Origin: Escherichia phage HY01
Strand: one strand, 5' to 3'
Sequence record: NC_027349.1
DNA: 64,000 nt
Each line of letters begins with the position of its first letter. Positions within the stretch are counted from its first letter, which is position 1. Positions 15,808-24,869 of this stretch are shown piece by piece. A program made the position numbers and the translations under genes. The notes under the pieces were generated by a model. It was not told the DNA's origin and ran no database searches. It saw only the letters and a program-made list of their open reading frames with translations.

Positions 15808-15837
15808 ATTATAACACAACACGAGGGACTTGTAAAC
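15808..15837 (-). promoter_or_regulatory. T4-type early promoter (GTTTAC-N18-TATAAT)
   Basis: Minus-strand GTTTAC at 15837-15832 and TATAAT at 15813-15808; part of a ~55-bp repeat also found upstream of alc. Confidence 0.55.
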
Positions 15838-17894
15838 TACATCTTGAACTTTTTAGACATTCCGTTGATGTTAACCAAAGAAGCCAAGATTTGAGAAACT
15901 TCGTTTTCCTCTTCTTTTGATTCTTCTACAAGGAATTGATTAAACCCAGCCATTGGACGAACTTCACCAGTTTCCATTAGATGATCGCCATCATATACCG
16001 ATTCTTCTAATTGTTCAGAAGGAGGAACGATTGTGCCTTCAATTAGATACTTGTTATAAGCAGTTTCTTTCATCATGTACGTGCTTACTTTATTAATCTT
16101 CAACAAAATTCCACGCGGTAGAATAACTTCAGCTTCTGATGGAAATCCCGATAAATGACCTGGAACGATAACTTTGATTCGCTCAGCCCCTTTAATTACC
16201 ATACCTACGCTAGTTTCAGCATCTTCATTCGCATAAGCAGAATGACTGCCCATATGCATTAAATCTTCAGCATCAACAGAACCTTCTCCTTCACCAGAAA
16301 ATACTGCGCCGGAATCATCTAGAGCCATATAGTTTTTACCATGCTCACCGAAGATATTTGGTTTAAGCGATGTTGATACGAAGTTCTTGAAATAGAACAT
16401 TTTATTTTCAATATTATGGCGTAAAGTTTTAAAAGTAACTTCTTGTCCACGATAAAGCGTAGTTCCTGGAGGAAGAACTGAACCTTTGGCAAAGGCAGAA
16501 TCCAGCGTCTCGATGTGTTTAATAGCTCGTTCCATATATTCTTCACGGGTAGAATCTGGTTTACCCAAGAGGAACGAGTTCATTTCAACATATGAATCTG
16601 CACAATAATCTTCAATTACATCAGACTCAGCCTGAGTCAGTCCTTTTGGAGTTACTTCGGTGCTTGCGTATTCATATGCCTGAGCAGCAGATTCATTAAT
16701 CAATTTATAAATGCCATTCATGACAAATTGAATAATAGCTACCTTTTCGTCTGGCGTGGCTTTAGAACCTTTAACTAAATCATTGATAATTTTCTTAATA
16801 ACATCAAAGCTATTAGAAATATTAATGTCAGCGAGATCGCTCAAAATTTTATCGGTTTTATAATCAAAGAATTCTTTATTCTTTAAATATTCTTGAGAAC
16901 CTTGATGTGTTATATCGCTCTGCAGTCTGATAGACGGATCACGTAAACGTGCATGGGCCAATGCAATATGATTTCGGAAGCTTTCTAGTTCATAATCGTT
17001 AGATTTAAAACGAGAAGCACTTCTCATACCACCGATAGCTCCTTTACCGAAGTTTGAACCAATCTGAATAACGCCAGAGTTCATTGGTCCTTCTGCTTTA
17101 TATACCGGAACTTTAGATTCAAACTCTTGATATTTCTTAGCGGCAAAGCTATCACCCTGAAGCGAAGCATCGACAGTAGAATATTGAGCTTGCGCTGCTA
17201 ATCGACGACTAATTTTAGTTTTCTGAATAACAGCTTGATCCGTGCGCTTATCATTTTCTAAAGCAATAGAAGCGGCAACAGCAACAGCTTTAGGAACAGC
17301 ATTACCTGTTTTAACATCTACATAAACATCACCAACCTTTGATTCAACTTTTGTGAATAACTCAGTTGAAATAGGAGGTACACCTGGAATGTCTTCTAAA
17401 TTAGCATTTTTACGGTAAACCATAATATATGCGTACTTTTTATCGTAATCCCAGATTTCCTTTAAAAGAACATATCGACCTGCTCCTTTAGTACGTACTA
17501 AACGGTCGGCAATAACTTGCATTTGACGAGCTGCACCATTTGTTTTACTCTTTAGTACGCGGAATAAGCATGCGTCAATTTTGTATTGTTTCATTGTCTG
17601 AAGAGCAGTATCAAAAACCGCATTAATGACACCAATTGGATTTCCACCCAAGTTTTTAAGTTTAACTAATGATAGTTTCTCATTAACACCTATCATTACG
17701 ATATGCATCATTTTATCGCCTGGCTTAACGTTTTTATTTGTATCACCGCCAGAGGTGTATGTACAAAATCTAAATCCAGGAAGCACGCTTTCTTCACCGG
17801 CTTGAATAGCAAAAATTTGAGGTATTTTATGCTTAGGATTTAAGTTAACAACCGGCGCCGAAGCGCCGTCAAATAATTCTGTAATAAGTTCCAT
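15837..17894 (-). CDS. Alt-like ADP-ribosyltransferase paralogue
   Basis: 685 aa; N-terminal ~200 aa closely parallel Alt (MELITELFD...); C-terminal domain has R (YRGQ), STS (FVSTSL) and EAEVILPRG motifs; start 3 nt after the alt stop. Confidence 0.75.
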   Translation of the reverse strand: MELITELFDGASAPVVNLNPKHKIPQIFAIQAGEESVLPGFRFCTYTSGGDTNKNVKPGDKMMHIVMIGVNEKLSLVKLKNLGGNPIGVINAVFDTALQTMKQYKIDACLFRVLKSKTNGAARQMQVIADRLVRTKGAGRYVLLKEIWDYDKKYAYIMVYRKNANLEDIPGVPPISTELFTKVESKVGDVYVDVKTGNAVPKAVAVAASIALENDKRTDQAVIQKTKISRRLAAQAQYSTVDASLQGDSFAAKKYQEFESKVPVYKAEGPMNSGVIQIGSNFGKGAIGGMRSASRFKSNDYELESFRNHIALAHARLRDPSIRLQSDITHQGSQEYLKNKEFFDYKTDKILSDLADINISNSFDVIKKIINDLVKGSKATPDEKVAIIQFVMNGIYKLINESAAQAYEYASTEVTPKGLTQAESDVIEDYCADSYVEMNSFLLGKPDSTREEYMERAIKHIETLDSAFAKGSVLPPGTTLYRGQEVTFKTLRHNIENKMFYFKNFVSTSLKPNIFGEHGKNYMALDDSGAVFSGEGEGSVDAEDLMHMGSHSAYANEDAETSVGMVIKGAERIKVIVPGHLSGFPSEAEVILPRGILLKINKVSTYMMKETAYNKYLIEGTIVPPSEQLEESVYDGDHLMETGEVRPMAGFNQFLVEESKEEENEVSQILASLVNINGMSKKFKM

Positions 17895-17897
17895 GAT

Positions 17898-19991
17898 TTA
17901 TCCTTGAACGAACTTGTAAGGCATGTTTGTAATATCTATGCAAGACGCAATAATTCCGAGAGATGATTCTGCTTTCTGTTTAACATTTGATGAAACAAAT
18001 GATGCAAAGTCAACTCTGTCTTCTATTTCAATATCACCTGTCATTGCAACTACTTCGCCGGTTTCCATTAAACGGTCACCGTCATAAATTACTGATTCGG
18101 TGAGTTCTTCCGTAGTCATAACTTCAGCTTGAATGAGTTTTGTATTATTAGATGTTGTTCCGTCATTATTAGAAGCATCAGTTATTTTATTAACTTTGAC
18201 CATCAATCCGCGTGGTAGAATAACTTCAGCTTCTGTTGCTATTCCGAGACTTCCTGGATATACAACATTAACTTTATGAGCTCCATCAATTGCCCATCCT
18301 ATTTGAACTTTAACGTATTCAGGATTTTCTTTATACGCTCTTATTTCGTTTGGATTAATAGTTATTCCTTCTTCATTTTTATCAACTGTCAATTCATTAC
18401 GAGCTTCTGGTTCTAAAAGACCAATACCAGCATGTGTAATTCCAAAACGTCCAAAAATGATAGGAGTTAAAGAAGTAGATACAAAATTTCTGAAATAGAA
18501 TACTTTATTTTTAACTAGTGCTTCGTATATAGGAGCAGTCATACTTTGAGCACGATAAACTGTAATGCCTTCTGGTATACGGTCGCCATTTTCAAAAGCT
18601 GAATCTAAGTTATTTATAGCAGATTCAATTTCTTTTTCACTCATTACATCATATCGTTCTGGATTGTAGCGTCCTAAAAGAAGATTATTGATGTCAGTAT
18701 ATCCTGAACCGCAATACTCTCTAATGCCACGCTTTTGTGATGGAGTATATTTAGAACCATCACGGGCAATAGTAATATCAATCATTGGACCTGCACCAAT
18801 TCCAGAAAAACTATAAATCATTCTTTTGAGGAATTTAGTTTTTGCTGCGTTCCAGGAATTTTTAGTTATTTCTTCCCAGACTTCATCTGGCTGTCCTTTA
18901 CGGGTTTTATTATGTTTATCAAGCCAATTATCTTTATATTCTTCAAAGAGTTGATTAACAGCTGCTGCGTATTTCTCTAAACATTTTATTGAAGTAGTTG
19001 GTTCATTTTTAATCGCATTAAGAATTACATCTTTAATTTTTTCAGAAACTTCATTAACCTCACTTTTTGAAAAGAATTTATAATCATAGTGAAGTTCATC
19101 TGCAGTTCCTTCGGCAATAATTTTTGCTGTCTTAGTTTTAGAAGCTAATGAATTAATTCCAAGTTTCATTTCTTCTGCTTCAGGAATTAAAGGAGCTGTA
19201 GCATGTTTATTAAAATTGGCTGCGGTAGATTCATACTTCTGGAATAATTCGCTTTCAAATCTAGAAGATTCTAATGACTGGCTTTGTGCAATTGCTCTAC
19301 GGGAAATTTTAACTTTAACGATTACAGCTTGGTCAGAACGTTTATCATTTTCTTGTGCAATAGATGCTGCAATTGCCTCATTTTTAGTTACTTGAGCTCC
19401 GGTATCTTTATTGATATAAACATCACCGACCTTCGATTCAACTTTAGTAAAGAGCTCGGTACTAATTTCCGGAACTCCTGGAATGTCTTCTAGTGATACA
19501 TTTTTGCGATGTATAAGAATATATGCATACTTTTTATCATAATCCCAGAGTTCCTTAAGAAGGACGTATCTGCCACCTGAACGACTACGGATAAGTCTAT
19601 CAGCAATAACTTGAATTTGTCGAGCTTGACCAGCAGTTTTAGACTTAAGAATACGAAGCATGCAGGCATCAATTTTATACTGACGCATCGTCTGCATTGC
19701 AACAGTAAAAACTGAATTGATGTAATTAATTGGACTTGGACCGAGACCTTTTAATTTAGCAATTGAACCTTTAGCAGTTAGTGTAAAAGGAACAATGTGC
19801 ATCATTTTATCGCCCATCTTTAAATCGCGATTAGTATCACCTCCAGATGTATAGGTACATAAACGAAAGCCTGGTTGTTCAATTGCGTCATCAACATGAA
19901 CTGAAAAAATTTGTGGTATTTTCTTCTTTGGATTTAAGTTTGTAATCGGAAGAGTAGTATCTTCGTCAAATAATTCTGTAATAAGTTCCAT
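17898..19991 (-). CDS. alt: Alt ADP-ribosyltransferase (capsid-packaged RNA polymerase modifier)
   Basis: N-terminus MELITELFDEDTTLPITNL... matches remembered T4 Alt; ART motifs YRAQ / FVSTSL / EAEVILPRG; second ATG chosen as start. Confidence 0.9.
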   Translation of the reverse strand: MELITELFDEDTTLPITNLNPKKKIPQIFSVHVDDAIEQPGFRLCTYTSGGDTNRDLKMGDKMMHIVPFTLTAKGSIAKLKGLGPSPINYINSVFTVAMQTMRQYKIDACMLRILKSKTAGQARQIQVIADRLIRSRSGGRYVLLKELWDYDKKYAYILIHRKNVSLEDIPGVPEISTELFTKVESKVGDVYINKDTGAQVTKNEAIAASIAQENDKRSDQAVIVKVKISRRAIAQSQSLESSRFESELFQKYESTAANFNKHATAPLIPEAEEMKLGINSLASKTKTAKIIAEGTADELHYDYKFFSKSEVNEVSEKIKDVILNAIKNEPTTSIKCLEKYAAAVNQLFEEYKDNWLDKHNKTRKGQPDEVWEEITKNSWNAAKTKFLKRMIYSFSGIGAGPMIDITIARDGSKYTPSQKRGIREYCGSGYTDINNLLLGRYNPERYDVMSEKEIESAINNLDSAFENGDRIPEGITVYRAQSMTAPIYEALVKNKVFYFRNFVSTSLTPIIFGRFGITHAGIGLLEPEARNELTVDKNEEGITINPNEIRAYKENPEYVKVQIGWAIDGAHKVNVVYPGSLGIATEAEVILPRGLMVKVNKITDASNNDGTTSNNTKLIQAEVMTTEELTESVIYDGDRLMETGEVVAMTGDIEIEDRVDFASFVSSNVKQKAESSLGIIASCIDITNMPYKFVQG

Positions 19992-20014
19992 CATATCCTC
20001 TCTAGTGTTTATTC

Positions 20015-20043: not shown

Positions 20044-20232
20044 TTAATAATCTAGTGGTAAGAGAGTACGGTATATTTCAAACTTTGGCCCTTTTTCATA
20101 GGCATCAAATGTTTCTGTAAATTTATTATAAGCATACGCATCTACAAATTCGAGAATGACTTGCGATACCGAAGTAGAAACATCTCCACCTTCTTTTTGA
20201 GCTATAACAATTGTTTCTAAGTAAGCTTTCAT
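20044..20232 (-). CDS. Hypothetical small protein (position of T4 alt.1)
   Basis: 62-aa ORF, start overlaps the ligase stop. Confidence 0.55.
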   Translation of the reverse strand: MKAYLETIVIAQKEGGDVSTSVSQVILEFVDAYAYNKFTETFDAYEKGPKFEIYRTLLPLDY

Positions 20233-21689
20233 AGACCAGTTACCTCATGAAAATCACCAAATACATCCTCGAATGTATTAGCTTTAGTTTTATCTTCACG
20301 TAAACGAATCACAATCGGAAGAAATAATTTAACGTAATCAGTGCGGCCATCAGATTTTAACCAACCATTGCATTCGCACTCTAGAATTTTTCCAATATAA
20401 TAATTTTGGTTTTCCATAATGCGAGTACGGTCAAGTTCATGCGATTTTACACCGGCTTTATCTTTTAAACCTGAACCAGCATTTACTTTAATTTTTCCAC
20501 ACTCTGATTCAAGAATAAATCCACCTGCTTTAGTAGGGTCTTTACGGTGAGGATAAATTCCTACAATTTTTAAATCAACATCAATTACTTCTTTAAATTT
20601 ATAAAGATTTTTTGAACGAGCATTTTCCCACAATCCATCGGTATTTTTGAGAATAATACCTTCAAGACCTTGGTCAATATACTTTTTATAAATTACCTTA
20701 GCTTCATCTAGGTTATTTACTACTTGGTTTTCAATTAAAATTACTTTATCATATCCTGATGTCATTTGTTCTAGTTTAGAAAACCGTACATCATATTTTA
20801 AACGAAACGCCGGAAGACCGTATATTTCTACTAACGGGACATAATCCCAGACCTGAAACTTCATACATTGAGCTTCTTTTTCTGAAATAGTTCCCTTTAA
20901 AGATTTATTGGCAATTCCATTAGAAGTAGTACGAGATTCCGCTACTTCGGCAAACTCTTTAGCTTTACTGATTTCAGGAGCATCAAAAAGAAAATCTAGG
21001 CCTTCTGGTTCCTTTTTAACTTGCTCATGGTATACCAATTCGCCATCAATTAACACACCTTCTGGATGAATCTGGCGGGCTTCTGCGGTCATTTTGATTA
21101 ATTCTTCTTTAAGAAGATCTAATCCTAGATATTCATTACCAGCTCGTGATAAAAGACGAACATCATCTAATTCATCACCTCTAACTTCAGCAAAACACCG
21201 GGCTCCATCTGCTTTTAACTGTGCAAAGGCTGGAAATTTGATATTCTTACTAATGCCTTTTTCATCATAAGAACTTGCCAGCATTTGAGGTTGTTCAGGA
21301 ATTAAACCTGGCCAAACTTTATTTGCAATAGATACCGAAGCACCGCATTCGAGGTCTCGCATCATAACTCGACGCAAAACTTCAACATCATCCTTTTTAC
21401 CATCAGTGATATATCCAGTTAATTCCTCAATTGCAGCATTTCCAGTCAATTTCCGAGTAGCTAACGTGAATTCAATGAAGTCAAGCATATCGGTAATAGT
21501 CAGCATTCCAAAACTCTGAGTAGCAATACCAGGTTTAGGCCATTTCTTGATATAATACTGTAACCCACGAGAATAAGTCAGACGATATACTCGTTTAAGC
21601 AATTCGTTATCTTTATTCCTTTCAAGAATTGCTTGCTTCTGCTTAGTTGATCCAATAGATGCTATTTCATTCAGAATTTTAAGAATCAT
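20229..21689 (-). CDS. 30: ATP-dependent DNA ligase gp30
   Basis: 486 aa; adenylation motif KADGAR; N-terminus MILKILNEIASIGSTKQKQAIL matches remembered T4 ligase. Confidence 0.95.
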   Translation of the reverse strand: MILKILNEIASIGSTKQKQAILERNKDNELLKRVYRLTYSRGLQYYIKKWPKPGIATQSFGMLTITDMLDFIEFTLATRKLTGNAAIEELTGYITDGKKDDVEVLRRVMMRDLECGASVSIANKVWPGLIPEQPQMLASSYDEKGISKNIKFPAFAQLKADGARCFAEVRGDELDDVRLLSRAGNEYLGLDLLKEELIKMTAEARQIHPEGVLIDGELVYHEQVKKEPEGLDFLFDAPEISKAKEFAEVAESRTTSNGIANKSLKGTISEKEAQCMKFQVWDYVPLVEIYGLPAFRLKYDVRFSKLEQMTSGYDKVILIENQVVNNLDEAKVIYKKYIDQGLEGIILKNTDGLWENARSKNLYKFKEVIDVDLKIVGIYPHRKDPTKAGGFILESECGKIKVNAGSGLKDKAGVKSHELDRTRIMENQNYYIGKILECECNGWLKSDGRTDYVKLFLPIVIRLREDKTKANTFEDVFGDFHEVTGL

Positions 21690-21955
21690 TGTTCATCCTT
21701 CAGAGTTTGATTTACATTTCTATTATAAATCAATTCATCATTAAGCTCAGGCAAAGACCTGTGATATGTAGTTCTAACTTTATTTCCTTGCATCCAATGC
21801 TTGATATAAATGAAACCTTGCTCTACACATTTTTTAAAAATTCGTTCGTCTTTTTGAGCTCGGAATTCTGGATTGCATCTAAAAAATTGATTTACGTGAC
21901 CGTAATCACGTGTAGTATTACCTTCATTTTCATAAATAGTGTGAACGACAAACAT
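21686..21955 (-). CDS. Hypothetical protein (position of T4 30.1)
   Basis: 89-aa ORF coupled to ligase. Confidence 0.6.
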   Translation of the reverse strand: MFVVHTIYENEGNTTRDYGHVNQFFRCNPEFRAQKDERIFKKCVEQGFIYIKHWMQGNKVRTTYHRSLPELNDELIYNRNVNQTLKDEQ

Positions 21956-22818
21956 TAGAATGCTCCTTGGAAAATATTATCACCACTAGTAAATCTATTA
22001 AAATACCCTGCATCACCAGGCTTAGTATAACTCCACGTATGGAATGGATTCATATGATACGGGTGTGTATAATATGGATTATATGGATGTGTATAATATG
22101 GATTATACGGATTAAATCCAGGAGTTCTCCAGGTAGTGTTCCAAGGAAAAGAATCGGTTTTAACCATCTTCTCAATTACATCTTTTATAGCTTTTTCACT
22201 ATCAAAACTTTCTTTATTTTCCTTCGGTGAAAAAAGCTTATTTTCTACATCATTCCATGTATAAACTCGCTGAGCGGTTTTTGGAATATTATCACGCTCT
22301 CCTCGAGCCATCCAATAAACAGGAACATTTAATATTTCACTCGCGTGGTCGCAGTGGTGAGCGAGATCGTCAATATAACAAATTACGTTATATTTCTCTT
22401 TTGCCTTTTTGAACAACTCTTCTTTTGAAGAATCATGACCACACATCATTACTTCTGAGAAGGCACCAGGAAAAAGAGCATTCAAATTAAATTGACGATT
22501 TAATAGAGCATCAATAGAATCACCCAATGCTGTAACAGCTACAAAATTATAATCTTCTTTTAATTTGTTAATTACACACAGGGCATCTTTATATGGAGAC
22601 AAGTAACGAATAAAATCTGATCGATTGTATTTTTCAATTAACTTGACACCAAGTTCTTCATCACAATTAAAGAGTTTACCTGGAGAAATAAATTTCTCAT
22701 CTTGGATCATTTTTAAAATATGTTCTAACGGAAGATTATATTTCTGAGCAAAATAAGGAAGACCTGATTGCCAGCTTAAACATACTCCATCAATATCAGT
22801 TAAAATAGTAGGCTTCAT
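21955..22818 (-). CDS. HAD-superfamily phosphatase-like protein with C-terminal NPYYTHPY tandem repeat (position of T4 30.2)
   Basis: 287 aa; HAD motif I DIDGV near the N-terminus, DD motif later; 24-bp tandem duplication near the 3' end. Confidence 0.65.
   Translation of the reverse strand: MKPTILTDIDGVCLSWQSGLPYFAQKYNLPLEHILKMIQDEKFISPGKLFNCDEELGVKLIEKYNRSDFIRYLSPYKDALCVINKLKEDYNFVAVTALGDSIDALLNRQFNLNALFPGAFSEVMMCGHDSSKEELFKKAKEKYNVICYIDDLAHHCDHASEILNVPVYWMARGERDNIPKTAQRVYTWNDVENKLFSPKENKESFDSEKAIKDVIEKMVKTDSFPWNTTWRTPGFNPYNPYYTHPYNPYYTHPYHMNPFHTWSYTKPGDAGYFNRFTSGDNIFQGAF
22065..22112. repeat. Tandem 24-bp direct repeat (2 copies) inside the HAD-like gene
   Basis: gtgtataatatggattata(t/c)ggat repeated back-to-back; encodes the NPYYTHPY duplication on the minus strand. 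Confidence 0.7.
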
Positions 22819-23273
22819 AGAGAGTCTCTTAATAGGTTTAACACATCAATAAATTCAGCTTCAGTTAGTATTGTATCATCTTTTGTTAGACCACTAGCCA
22901 TGCTGTGCTTCAAAACTTTTCCTTTCGAGGCTTGTAATGCATCGCGAAAGCCCCTGTTTTGGAACGCTGCTTCAAAATATGCATTTGTGTATAGCTCTTT
23001 CCACGCCGGGGAGTATCTTGAAAACGGAACTCCAAGCCAGAACAATGTGCCACGGTCCTGAGCTCTTGCATAAGCTCGTCCAGCTTTTTGTGCGTCCAAC
23101 CCGGACATCCCAAATATACGTCTTTGCTGTTCAACATTTTTCACCTTACATCCTTGGAGGAATCCTTCGAGACCTCCAAATTGGATACCATCCATAACGA
23201 AAGGCCATTGGGCAAAATTGCTTAATGCACATGATGGCCATCTAAAATTGCTTCTAATCTCTAACTCAGACAT
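22815..23273 (-). CDS. NADAR-like (YbiA-type) domain protein (position of T4 30.3)
   Basis: Track start at 23279 is TTG; ATG at 23273 gives 152 aa; LSNFAQWPFVMDGIQF resembles the NADAR/DUF1768 N-terminal signature, from memory. Confidence 0.55.
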   Translation of the reverse strand: MSELEIRSNFRWPSCALSNFAQWPFVMDGIQFGGLEGFLQGCKVKNVEQQRRIFGMSGLDAQKAGRAYARAQDRGTLFWLGVPFSRYSPAWKELYTNAYFEAAFQNRGFRDALQASKGKVLKHSMASGLTKDDTILTEAEFIDVLNLLRDSL

Positions 23274-24426: not shown

Positions 24427-24759
24427 TTATTTTACTACTTTCCAATGCTTCATGTCAAGTTTGCCAACTTTTTTCATCTTCTCAATTAAGCGTTCAGCAC
24501 GTTGGCGAGCTGTAACATAATACCATTCACCTAATTCATTTTGTTCAATTTTTCCAACGATTACTGTATTCAATTCATAAATCCAACCAGTAAAGAAATT
24601 ATGAACTTGAATTGTAAAGGTGAAATCTGTTCCCATACCTTCTGTTGTTTCTACTTCAATAATATCACCTTCAACTGCCATTAAGAACCACATAGTTTCA
24701 TCATATTTACCATTGAAGCATTTAGTTTTAACTGTAGCGTTCAGATTAATCGTTTTCAT
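24427..24759 (-). CDS. Hypothetical protein
   Basis: 110-aa ORF with AGGAGAA Shine-Dalgarno, immediately downstream of an early promoter. Confidence 0.6.
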   Translation of the reverse strand: MKTINLNATVKTKCFNGKYDETMWFLMAVEGDIIEVETTEGMGTDFTFTIQVHNFFTGWIYELNTVIVGKIEQNELGEWYYVTARQRAERLIEKMKKVGKLDMKHWKVVK

Positions 24760-24837: not shown

Positions 24838-24865
24838 AATAAAAAAGGACTCCCGAAGGAGTCCT
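24838..24865 (-). terminator. Hairpin terminator (GGACTCC-CGAA-GGAGTCC)
   Basis: Perfect stem with tetraloop and a U-run on the minus strand, directly after the 24870 ORF stop. Confidence 0.55.
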
Positions 24866-24869
24866 CAAC

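What the first reader, a model, noticed from the sequence alone, without database searches (positions are those of the whole stretch)
21955..23273. HAD-like phosphatase and NADAR-like protein adjacent to the Alt genes: possible ADP-ribose processing pair
The ORF at 22815-23273 carries an N-terminal LSNFAQWPFVMDGIQF segment that resembles the NADAR/YbiA family signature, which is linked to ADP-ribose and NAD-derived metabolite processing. The neighbouring ORF (21955-22818) has HAD phosphatase motifs (DIDGV, DD). Together with the two ARTs ~2 kb away this could form a writer/eraser or nucleotide-salvage set around ADP-ribosylation. The NADAR assignment is from memory of the motif, not from a search.
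Basis: inference. Interest (0 to 1): 0.45.

Follow-up and report, generated by a model that had tools for sequence, protein, structure and literature searches.

The report
Known anti-DarT NADAR beside uncharacterised HAD phosphatase
These are phage T4 genes 30.3 and 30.2: 30.3 is the already characterised enzyme AdfN, which strips ADP-ribose off phage DNA to defeat the bacterial DarTG1 defence, and 30.2 is a conserved but untested HAD-type phosphatase that tracks the DNA ligase gene rather than 30.3 or the Alt toxins.

Summary
The window is Escherichia phage PEC04, a T4-type phage (100% identity). Both ORFs exist as described.

**ORF 22815-23273 (minus strand) is T4 gp30.3.**
- It is 95% identical to T4 gp30.3 and hits Pfam Phage_30_3 at 1.2e-68.
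- It has a NADAR fold; its only convincing structural matches are YbiA, PnNADAR and DarG1.
- The catalytic residues E36, K43 and H123 are present.
- T4 gp30.3 was renamed AdfN. Published work shows it removes ADP-ribose from guanine in DNA and neutralises the host DarTG1 defence.

**ORF 21955-22818 is T4 gp30.2.**
- It is a capped HAD phosphatase. All four catalytic motifs are conserved across 41 homologues.
- Its closest solved relatives by sequence are 5'(3')-deoxyribonucleotidases.
- Its substrate is unknown, and I found no literature on it.

**The proposed functional set is not supported.**
- The known writer that AdfN opposes is the host enzyme DarT1, not the phage Alt proteins.
- The HAD and NADAR genes are adjacent only in some T4-like lineages. 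NADAR lies within 8 kb in 37 of 83 HAD loci. In other genomes the two genes sit 54-70 kb apart.
- The HAD gene stays intact where 30.3 is truncated.
- The HAD gene lies next to the DNA ligase gene in 78 of 83 loci.

**Verdict:** both fold calls are correct. The NADAR part is already known. The HAD protein is an ordinary uncharacterised enzyme. The pairing hypothesis is weak.

The parts
22815..23273 (-). Gene 30.3 = adfN, a phage-type NADAR DNA ADP-ribosylglycohydrolase (152 aa, ATG start, stop included)
   Evidence: Pfam PF08010 hits at 1.2e-68. It is 95% identical to T4 gp30.3 over 152/152 residues. The AF2 model has pLDDT 93.6. The top three Foldseek hits are YbiA 2b3w, PnNADAR 8bau and G. 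lovleyi NADAR 8bat. The function of the T4 orthologue is shown in PMC11825919.
23166..23168 (-). Codon for E36 of AdfN, a catalytic glutamate
   Evidence: The GAA codon was read. The residue is invariant in 40 homologues. E36A impairs T4 AdfN (PMC11825919).
23145..23147 (-). Codon for K43 of AdfN, the phosphate-binding lysine
   Evidence: The AAG codon was read. The residue is conserved in at least 90% of homologues. K43A impairs T4 AdfN (PMC11825919).
22905..22907 (-). Codon for H123 of AdfN, the histidine in the last strand that marks phage NADARs
   Evidence: The CAC codon was read. The residue is invariant in 40 homologues. PMC11543638 and PMC11125620 describe His here in phage NADARs, in place of Glu in YbiA-type and Asp in DarG1-type enzymes.
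22910..23137 (-). Out-of-frame internal ORF (75 aa), equivalent to T4 30.3'
   Evidence: It is listed. T4 annotates 30.3' as internal translation in another frame within 30.3. I did not test it further.
21955..22818 (-). Gene 30.2: a HAD-superfamily phosphatase with a helical C1 cap and a disordered C-terminal tail (287 aa)
22789..22797 (-). HAD motif I, D8-I-D10 (nucleophile and general acid/base)
   Evidence: The sequence was read. D8, D10 and G11 are invariant in 41 homologues.
22531..22533 (-). HAD motif II, T96
   Evidence: T96 is conserved in at least 90% of homologues and A97 is invariant. It sits at the end of strand 91-96 in the model.
22423..22425 (-). HAD motif III, K132
   Evidence: Invariant in 41 homologues.
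22366..22371 (-). HAD motif IV, D150-D151 (Mg2+ ligands)
   Evidence: Conserved in at least 90% of homologues. It sits at the end of strand 145-150 in the model.
21958..22146 (-). Low-complexity, Pro/Tyr/Asn-rich C-terminal tail of gp30.2 (about residues 225-287), predicted disordered
   Evidence: pLDDT is 41-55 from residue 221. The tail is variable or absent in homologues.
22057..22112 (.). 24-nt tandem repeat (2.3 copies) that gives the duplicated NPYYTHPY in the tail
   Evidence: TRF reports period 24 with 90% matches. It accounts for a 10-aa insertion relative to T4.

Best explanation
The two ORFs are T4 genes 30.3 and 30.2. I read them as two separate enzymes that lie side by side because of inherited T4 gene order.

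**Gene 30.3 (AdfN).**
- It is a minimal NADAR-fold N-glycosidase.
- When the host toxin DarT1 ADP-ribosylates guanines in phage DNA, AdfN hydrolyses the ribose-guanine bond. This releases ADP-ribose and lets replication continue.
- This is shown experimentally for the T4 protein. I infer it here from 95% identity and intact catalytic residues.

**Gene 30.2.**
- It is a Mg2+-dependent HAD phosphomonoesterase. Asp8 is the nucleophile, Asp10 the acid/base, and Thr96, Lys132 and Asp150/151 complete the site.
- Its helical cap resembles that of 5'(3')-deoxyribonucleotidases.
- It therefore most likely dephosphorylates a small nucleotide-like substrate in phage nucleotide or DNA metabolism.
- The fold and the catalytic motifs are shown here. 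The substrate and the role are inferred.

Its most conserved neighbour is the DNA ligase gene, not the NADAR gene or the alt genes.
For: **Identity of the locus**
- The window matches phage PEC04 at 100%.
- The gene order equals T4 alt-alt.1-30-30.1-30.2-30.3.

**NADAR (gp30.3)**
- PF08010 hits at 1.2e-68.
- 18 of 40 homologues also hit Pfam NADAR PF08719, best 1.5e-7.
- A profile of the family hits the YbiA structure at E=0.002.
- The only convincing Foldseek hits are the three NADAR structures.
- E36, K43 and H123 are conserved.
- The protein is 95% identical to T4 AdfN, including the C-terminal helix.
- Activity and DarTG1 counter-defence are published (PMC11825919, PMC11125620, PMC12945103).

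**HAD (gp30.2)**
- All four motifs are invariant or nearly so in 41 homologues.
- The model is confident.
- Foldseek gives 109 hits at E<=0.001, and the 50 hits listed are HAD-fold structures or designs derived from them.
- The family profile's best PDB match is mouse cytosolic deoxyribonucleotidase 2jao, E=0.033. That alignment puts W16, F43 and Y64 opposite aromatic residues of its cap.
- Sub-threshold Pfam hits are to Hydrolase, NT5C and HAD_2.

**Independence of the two genes**
- NADAR lies within 8 kb of the HAD gene in 37 of 83 loci. Ligase lies within about 2.3 kb in 78 of 83.
- Only 20 of 79 NADAR loci have a HAD homologue nearby.
- Eight contigs carry both genes 54-69 kb apart.
- The same holds for Aeromonas phage Asswx_1, about 70 kb apart.
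- Truncated 30.3 alleles sit next to intact 30.2 (L013; the fragments; RB69 in PMC11825919).
Against: - No enzymology exists for gp30.2, and I found no literature on it. The substrate assignment is therefore an inference.
- The query itself has no Pfam hit at E<=1.
- In Tequatrovirus and its closest relatives, 30.3 and 30.2 are translationally overlapped (ATGA). Both genes are near-universal in Straboviridae (1509 and 1436 phage records). A functional link therefore cannot be excluded.
- The published finding that AdfN works fully only during T-even infection leaves room for an unknown phage partner (PMC11825919).
- The HAD-ligase linkage could itself be inherited synteny.
Confidence: 0.8

Rival explanations
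1. Writer/eraser set. The NADAR reverses ADP-ribosylation written by the neighbouring phage Alt enzymes, and the HAD protein processes the released products.
For: - Two Alt-type ADP-ribosyltransferase genes lie about 2 kb away.
- I found no published test of phage NADAR on arginine-linked ADP-ribose.
Against: - Alt belongs to the exotoxin ART family PF03496. By established knowledge it modifies arginine in proteins.
- Every tested NADAR activity is on nucleobase-linked ADP-ribose (PMC11543638, PMC12945103).
- The genetic phenotype of adfN is DarTG1 resistance (PMC11825919).
- In many T4-like genomes the NADAR gene is 54-70 kb from the alt/ligase/HAD block.
- The neighbours of a relocated NADAR include no ART or HAD gene.
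Confidence: 0.04
2. gp30.2 is the missing T-even-specific helper of AdfN. For example, it could dephosphorylate ADP-ribose-derived products or ADP-ribosylated dGMP salvaged from degraded DNA. The two proteins would then form one anti-DarT module.
For: - The start and stop codons overlap (ATGA), so translation may be coupled.
- 30.3 is always upstream of 30.2 on the same strand whenever both are within 8 kb.
- Both genes are near-universal in Straboviridae.
- AdfN fails outside T-even infection, and the authors propose an unknown phage cofactor (PMC11825919, section read).
- The gp30.2 cap looks nucleotide-binding.
Against: - Adjacency is lost in roughly half of the HAD loci and in 59 of 79 NADAR loci.
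- The HAD gene is retained intact next to truncated NADAR alleles.
- Overlapping stop and start codons are the rule along this whole T4 gene block.
- NADAR hydrolysis needs no phosphatase chemically, and purified AdfN works alone in vitro (PMC11825919, PMC11125620).
- Many other T-even-specific genes are equally eligible as the cofactor.
Confidence: 0.1
3. gp30.2 is a DNA-end 3'-phosphatase that prepares nicks for the adjacent DNA ligase. In that case it acts on a macromolecule, not on a nucleotide.
For: - A ligase gene lies within 0.5-2.3 kb in 78 of 83 loci. The proximity survives a rearranged lineage in which the order is ligase-x-x-HAD beside uvsY/uvsW.
Against: - gp30.2 has an approximately 80-residue helical cap between motifs I and II. 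By established HAD classification, such a cap goes with small-molecule substrates, and Pnkp lacks it.
- T4-type phages already encode Pnkp.
- The linkage may be inherited gene order.
Confidence: 0.1

Closest known systems
T4 AdfN (gp30.3), the phage branch of the NADAR superfamily
   Same: - It is 95% identical over the full 152 residues.
- It occupies the same genomic position.
- It has E36, K43, H123 and the C-terminal helix needed for full activity (PMC11825919).
   Different: There are seven substitutions, none at known catalytic positions. The gene is not annotated as a CDS in the PEC04 GenBank record.
DarG1 antitoxin NADAR (G. lovleyi, 8bat) and E. coli YbiA (2b3w)
   Same: It shares their fold (Foldseek probability 0.99-1.0), the Glu/Lys catalytic pair, and guanine de-ADP-ribosylation chemistry (PMC11543638, PMC11125620).
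   Different: - Sequence identity is only 15-17%.
- It is a bare core domain without the N-terminal extension of DarG1.
- It has His in the last strand, in place of Asp (DarG1) or Glu (YbiA).
- It is not encoded next to a DarT toxin.
- The T4 protein does not rescue DarT1 toxicity in uninfected cells (PMC11825919).
Cytosolic and mitochondrial 5'(3')-deoxyribonucleotidases (cdN/mdN, Pfam NT5C) and the S. epidermidis homologue 3bwv
   Same: - gp30.2 shares the HAD core and a helical C1 cap.
- It shares the DxDGV...[FW]xSGL start of the cap.
- These are the best sequence-profile match (2jao) and among the best fold matches (TM 0.63-0.71 on the target).
   Different: - Identity is 16-21%.
- Pfam NT5C scores stay below the curated cut-off.
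- gp30.2 has an extra disordered tail of about 60-90 residues.
- Its substrate is untested.
T5 Dmp (deoxynucleoside-5'-monophosphatase)
   Same: It is a phage-encoded enzyme with a DxDG motif I. It is a possible functional analogue in dNMP handling.
   Different: There is no specific homology. hhalign gives probability 1.8% and aligns only motif I.

Membership tests
NADAR superfamily (phage gp30.3 / AdfN branch) | Significant match to the family sequence model | tested here: met
   PF08010 Phage_30_3 scores 229.6 bits against a cut-off of 36. 18 of 40 homologues also hit PF08719 NADAR, best 1.5e-7. The family profile hits YbiA 2b3w at E=0.002.
NADAR superfamily (phage gp30.3 / AdfN branch) | YbiA/NADAR alpha+beta fold | tested here: met
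   The AF2 model has pLDDT 93.6. The top three Foldseek PDB hits are 2b3w, 8bau and 8bat at probability 0.99-1.0. No other hit exceeds probability 0.08.
NADAR superfamily (phage gp30.3 / AdfN branch) | Catalytic Glu and Lys, plus the branch-specific His in the last strand | tested here: met
   E36 and H123 are invariant. K43 is conserved in at least 90% of 40 homologues. All three are present in the window protein.
NADAR superfamily (phage gp30.3 / AdfN branch) | Hydrolysis of guanine-linked ADP-ribose and DarTG1 counter-defence | not testable with these tools
   This is shown for the 95%-identical T4 protein (PMC11825919, PMC11125620, PMC12945103). It is inferred here.
HAD superfamily phosphatases | Four catalytic motifs: DxD, S/T, K, DD | tested here: met
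   D8, D10 and K132 are invariant. T96, D150 and D151 are conserved in at least 90% of 41 homologues.
HAD superfamily phosphatases | Rossmannoid HAD core fold | tested here: met
HAD superfamily phosphatases | Match to a curated HAD sequence model above threshold | tested here: not met
   The query has no Pfam or NCBIfam hit at E<=1. Homologues reach PF00702, PF13419 and PF06941 only below the curated cut-offs. Superfamily membership therefore rests on the motifs and the fold.
NT5C 5'(3')-deoxyribonucleotidase family | Family-level sequence match | tested here: inconclusive
   The profile hits 2jao at E=0.033 over residues 5-102. PF06941 is hit by 9 of 41 homologues, best 1.2e-4 and below cut-off.
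NT5C 5'(3')-deoxyribonucleotidase family | Aromatic nucleoside-binding residues in the cap | tested here: inconclusive
   W16, F43 and Y64 are invariant or nearly so. They align with aromatic residues of mouse cdN. Their role in cdN is from my own recollection, and I did not find it in the paper library.
NT5C 5'(3')-deoxyribonucleotidase family | dNMP phosphatase activity | not testable with these tools
   I found no biochemical data on gp30.2.
ART/hydrolase (writer-eraser) operon such as DarT-DarG | Conserved linkage of the hydrolase gene to the transferase gene across lineages | tested here: not met
   The NADAR gene is 54-70 kb from the alt/ligase/HAD block in at least nine genomes. alt is on the opposite strand in several loci.

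The most novel reading that the evidence does not exclude
gp30.2 is the unidentified T-even-specific factor that AdfN needs for full activity in vivo. The two overlapping genes would form a two-enzyme anti-DarT1 module: the NADAR removes ADP-ribose from guanine, and the HAD phosphatase clears ADP-ribose-derived or ADP-ribosylated nucleotide by-products from the pool the phage recycles out of host DNA. A related reading is that gp30.2 is a ligase-coupled phosphatase conserved across Straboviridae.
Probability: 0.1. Interest if true: 0.55.

Novelty: already known. Interest (0 to 1): 0.15.

Why it matters
The NADAR half adds nothing new. It is an orthologue of a published counter-defence enzyme, which suggests that PEC04, like T4, resists DarTG1.

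The useful residue concerns gp30.2.
- It is a near-universal, catalytically intact HAD phosphatase of T4-like phages with no assigned function.
- It is linked to the DNA ligase gene far more consistently than to the NADAR gene.
- It is therefore a cheap biochemical target.
- It is also one of many candidates for the unknown phage factor that AdfN appears to need.

Tried and rejected
- **Single-sequence searches.** Searches of both proteins against PDB sequences gave only noise. Profiles were needed.
- **Curated libraries.** NCBIfam and PADLOC gave nothing for either protein.
- **T5 Dmp.** I considered it a homologue of gp30.2 and rejected it. hhalign gave probability 1.8% and aligned motif I only. 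Dmp itself has no Pfam hit.
- **Domain fusions.** I looked for informative fusions among 1429 representative-cluster relatives of gp30.2. The longer proteins showed no extra Pfam domain.
- **Neighbours of a relocated NADAR gene (L137).** There was no ART, HAD or NAD-metabolism domain.
- **Promoters and terminators.** The scan found no more sites than shuffled sequence and nothing between 30.3 and 30.2.
- **Literature on gp30.2.** Searches returned nothing relevant. The T4 core-genome review does not mention 30.2 or 30.3.
- **cdN residue roles.** I could not confirm them in the held library.

Full report
**What the window is.** The 1.9 kb around the finding is 100% identical to Escherichia phage PEC04 (KR233165.1, Tequatrovirus). 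It is 96-97% identical to many other T4-type phages. The minus-strand gene order is:
- Alt-like, 15837-17894
- Alt, 17898-19994
- alt.1, 20044-20232
- DNA ligase gp30, 20229-21689
- 30.1, 21686-21955
- 30.2, 21955-22818
- 30.3, 22815-23273
- 30.4 onwards

This is the order annotated in T4. Both Alt paralogues hit the exotoxin ADP-ribosyltransferase family PF03496, at 1.6e-37 and 3.2e-20. The ligase hits PF01068.

**Check of the observation.** Both ORFs, their coordinates and the quoted motifs are real.
- The 152-aa ORF starts at the ATG at 23273 and holds LSNFAQWPFVMDGIQF at residues 17-32.
- The 287-aa ORF holds DIDGV at residues 8-12 and DD at residues 150-151.
- The 30.3 stop and the 30.2 start overlap as ATGA.
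- Such overlaps occur at nearly every junction in this block (30.4/30.3, 30.2/30.1, 30.1/30). The overlap is therefore not a special mark of coupling.

**The 152-aa protein is a NADAR, and a known one.**
- It matches Pfam Phage_30_3 (PF08010) at 1.2e-68.
- In an alignment of 40 homologues, 18 also hit the NADAR model PF08719, best 1.5e-7.
- The family profile finds the E. coli YbiA structure at E=0.002. The LSNF...EGF segment is aligned there.
- An AlphaFold2 model has pLDDT 93.6. Its only convincing Foldseek matches are the three solved NADARs: YbiA 2b3w, Phytophthora NADAR 8bau and Geobacter lovleyi DarG1-type NADAR 8bat.
- The protein is 95% identical to T4 gp30.3 over its full length.
- It keeps E36 and K43, and also H123, which is invariant in the family.

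The literature settles the function of the T4 orthologue.
- Phage NADARs (gp30.3 proteins) are a recognised branch with His in place of the YbiA Glu or the DarG1 Asp (PMC11543638, PMC11125620).
- The T4 enzyme hydrolyses guanine-linked ADP-ribose on DNA in vitro (PMC11125620, PMC12945103).
- Gene 30.3 was renamed adfN. It is necessary and sufficient for T-even resistance to the DarTG1 toxin-antitoxin defence. E36A, K43A and loss of the C-terminal helix weaken it (PMC11825919).
- The PEC04 allele is full length, so I infer the same activity.

**The 287-aa protein is a HAD phosphatase of unknown substrate.**
- No curated model hits it. There is nothing in Pfam at E<=1 and nothing in NCBIfam.
- It belongs to PHROG 420, "unknown function", at 2.4e-89.
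- It has 100 detectable homologues at 39-98% identity, all apparently from T4-like phages.
- Across 41 of them, D8, D10, G11 and K132 are invariant. T96, D150 and D151 are nearly so. These are the four HAD motifs.
- In the AlphaFold2 model, pLDDT is mostly above 90 for residues 1-190 and 41-55 from residue 221.
- About 80 residues of helices lie between motifs I and II, which is a C1 cap. By the established HAD classification, such a cap points to a small-molecule substrate.

The closest solved relatives by sequence are the 5'(3')-deoxyribonucleotidases.
- The family profile's best PDB hit is mouse cdN 2jao, at a marginal E=0.033.
- Deoxyribonucleotidases give the best target-normalised TM-scores, 0.63-0.71.
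- Homologues give sub-threshold hits to Pfam NT5C.
- In the 2jao alignment, the conserved W16, F43 and Y64 fall opposite aromatic cap residues. As far as I recall, these bind the nucleoside in cdN. I could not confirm that in the held papers.

The nucleotide-like substrate is therefore an inference, not a result. A search of 1.84 billion representative proteins finds 1429 related clusters. Most are stand-alone proteins of about 200 aa, with no informative fusions. I found no publication on gp30.2. The PEC04 record already calls it a [quoted passage not shown].

**Is it a functional set?** I tested linkage in related genomes.
- Among 83 loci carrying a gp30.2 homologue, a NADAR homologue lies within 8 kb in 37. 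It is always upstream and on the same strand.
- Among 79 loci retrieved through the NADAR gene, only 20 have a gp30.2-like gene within 8 kb.
- Eight viral contigs appear in both sets with the two genes 54-69 kb apart.
- Aeromonas phage Asswx_1 has them about 70 kb apart.
- The neighbours of one relocated NADAR gene carry no ART, HAD or NAD-related domain.
- 30.3 is often truncated in nature while the adjacent 30.2 stays intact. Examples are locus L013, the fragmentary clusters, and RB69 in PMC11825919.
- Both genes are near-universal in Straboviridae, with 1436 and 1509 phage records and matching host-genus profiles. Genome-level co-occurrence therefore says little.
- In contrast, a DNA ligase homologue lies 0.5-2.3 kb from the HAD gene in 78 of 83 loci. 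This includes a rearranged lineage where the order is ligase-88 aa-136 aa-HAD next to uvsY and uvsW.

The HAD gene thus tracks the ligase gene, not the NADAR gene.

**The Alt link.**
- The experimentally established writer opposed by AdfN is the host DarT1. It modifies guanine in DNA.
- Alt enzymes belong to the arginine-specific exotoxin family.
- I found no test of AdfN on Arg-ADP-ribose, so the idea is not formally excluded. It has no positive support, and the alt-NADAR proximity is not conserved.

**What remains open.**
- AdfN from T4 removes ADP-ribose from DNA in vitro. It does not rescue DarT1 toxicity in uninfected cells, and it only weakly helps T5 or Bas25.
- The authors suggest an additional T-even protein is needed (PMC11825919).
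- gp30.2 is one candidate because of its position, but so are many other T-even-specific genes. The linkage data above argue against an obligate pair. I put this at about 0.1.

**Verdict.**
- The NADAR protein is already known and characterised as AdfN.
- The HAD protein is an ordinary but uncharacterised member of a known superfamily.
- The proposed ADP-ribose processing set around Alt is not supported.
- Interest is low.

Noticed in passing
window 22815-23273 (-): Gene 30.3/adfN has no CDS in the PEC04 GenBank record KR233165.1. The record shows a gap between the 30.2 and 30.4 CDSs, although the ORF is intact and 95% identical to T4 AdfN.
   Followed up: yes
window 20229-22818 (-); loci L002-L081, L163-L165: The gp30.2-like HAD gene lies 0.5-2.3 kb from a DNA ligase gene in 78 of 83 loci. 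This includes a rearranged lineage with the order ligase-x-x-HAD beside uvsY/uvsW. The linkage is tighter than the linkage to the NADAR gene (37 of 83).
   Followed up: partly
window 22057-22112: A 24-nt tandem repeat (2.3 copies, 90% matches) duplicates NPYYTHPY in the disordered tail of gp30.2. It gives a 10-aa insertion relative to T4.
   Followed up: partly
window 21958-22030 (-), C-terminal end of gp30.2: Several homologues from other genera, and T4 itself, share a short tail motif (G-I-E-Y-L-x-x-R/Q-P-T-A/C) near the C-terminus. PEC04 has a diverged version (GYFNRFTS) followed by GDNIFQGAF. It may be a docking peptide, but its partner is unknown.
   Followed up: no
window 22910-23137 (-): A 75-aa ORF in another frame inside 30.3 corresponds to T4's annotated 30.3' (internal translation). 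It is conserved here as an open frame.
   Followed up: no
window 15837-19994 (-): PEC04 carries two full-length Alt-type ART paralogues in tandem. T4 has one alt gene plus the short remnants alt.-1 and alt.-2, which T4's annotation describes as an old partial duplication.
   Followed up: partly
loci L107, L113, L136, L137, L145, L146, L149, L157 versus L067, L041, L081, L017, L021, L035, L024, L023: In eight T4-like contigs the NADAR gene sits 54-69 kb from the ligase/HAD block, among small ORFs without Pfam matches. One neighbour has a YadA-anchor-like domain (L137 5570-5947).
   Followed up: partly
clusters P0104-P0118, P0146, P0196; locus L013 7636-8001: Many natural 30.3 alleles are truncated or split (86-126 aa fragments, some fused to neighbouring ORF families). 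This suggests frequent loss of AdfN where DarTG1 pressure is absent.
   Followed up: no
L163 7258-7524: A Tad2-like (anti-Thoeris sponge family, PF11195) ORF lies a few kb from the ligase/HAD pair in a distant T4-like metagenomic contig.
   Followed up: no
window 24429-24458 (-) and 24845-24866 (-): There is a strong sigma-70-like promoter match (TTGACA-18-TAAAAT, 11 of 12) just upstream of 30.7. A terminator-like hairpin lies about 400 nt further upstream. Together they may delimit the early transcription unit that runs through 30.3, 30.2 and the ligase gene. The overall number of such sites is not above the shuffled expectation.
   Followed up: no
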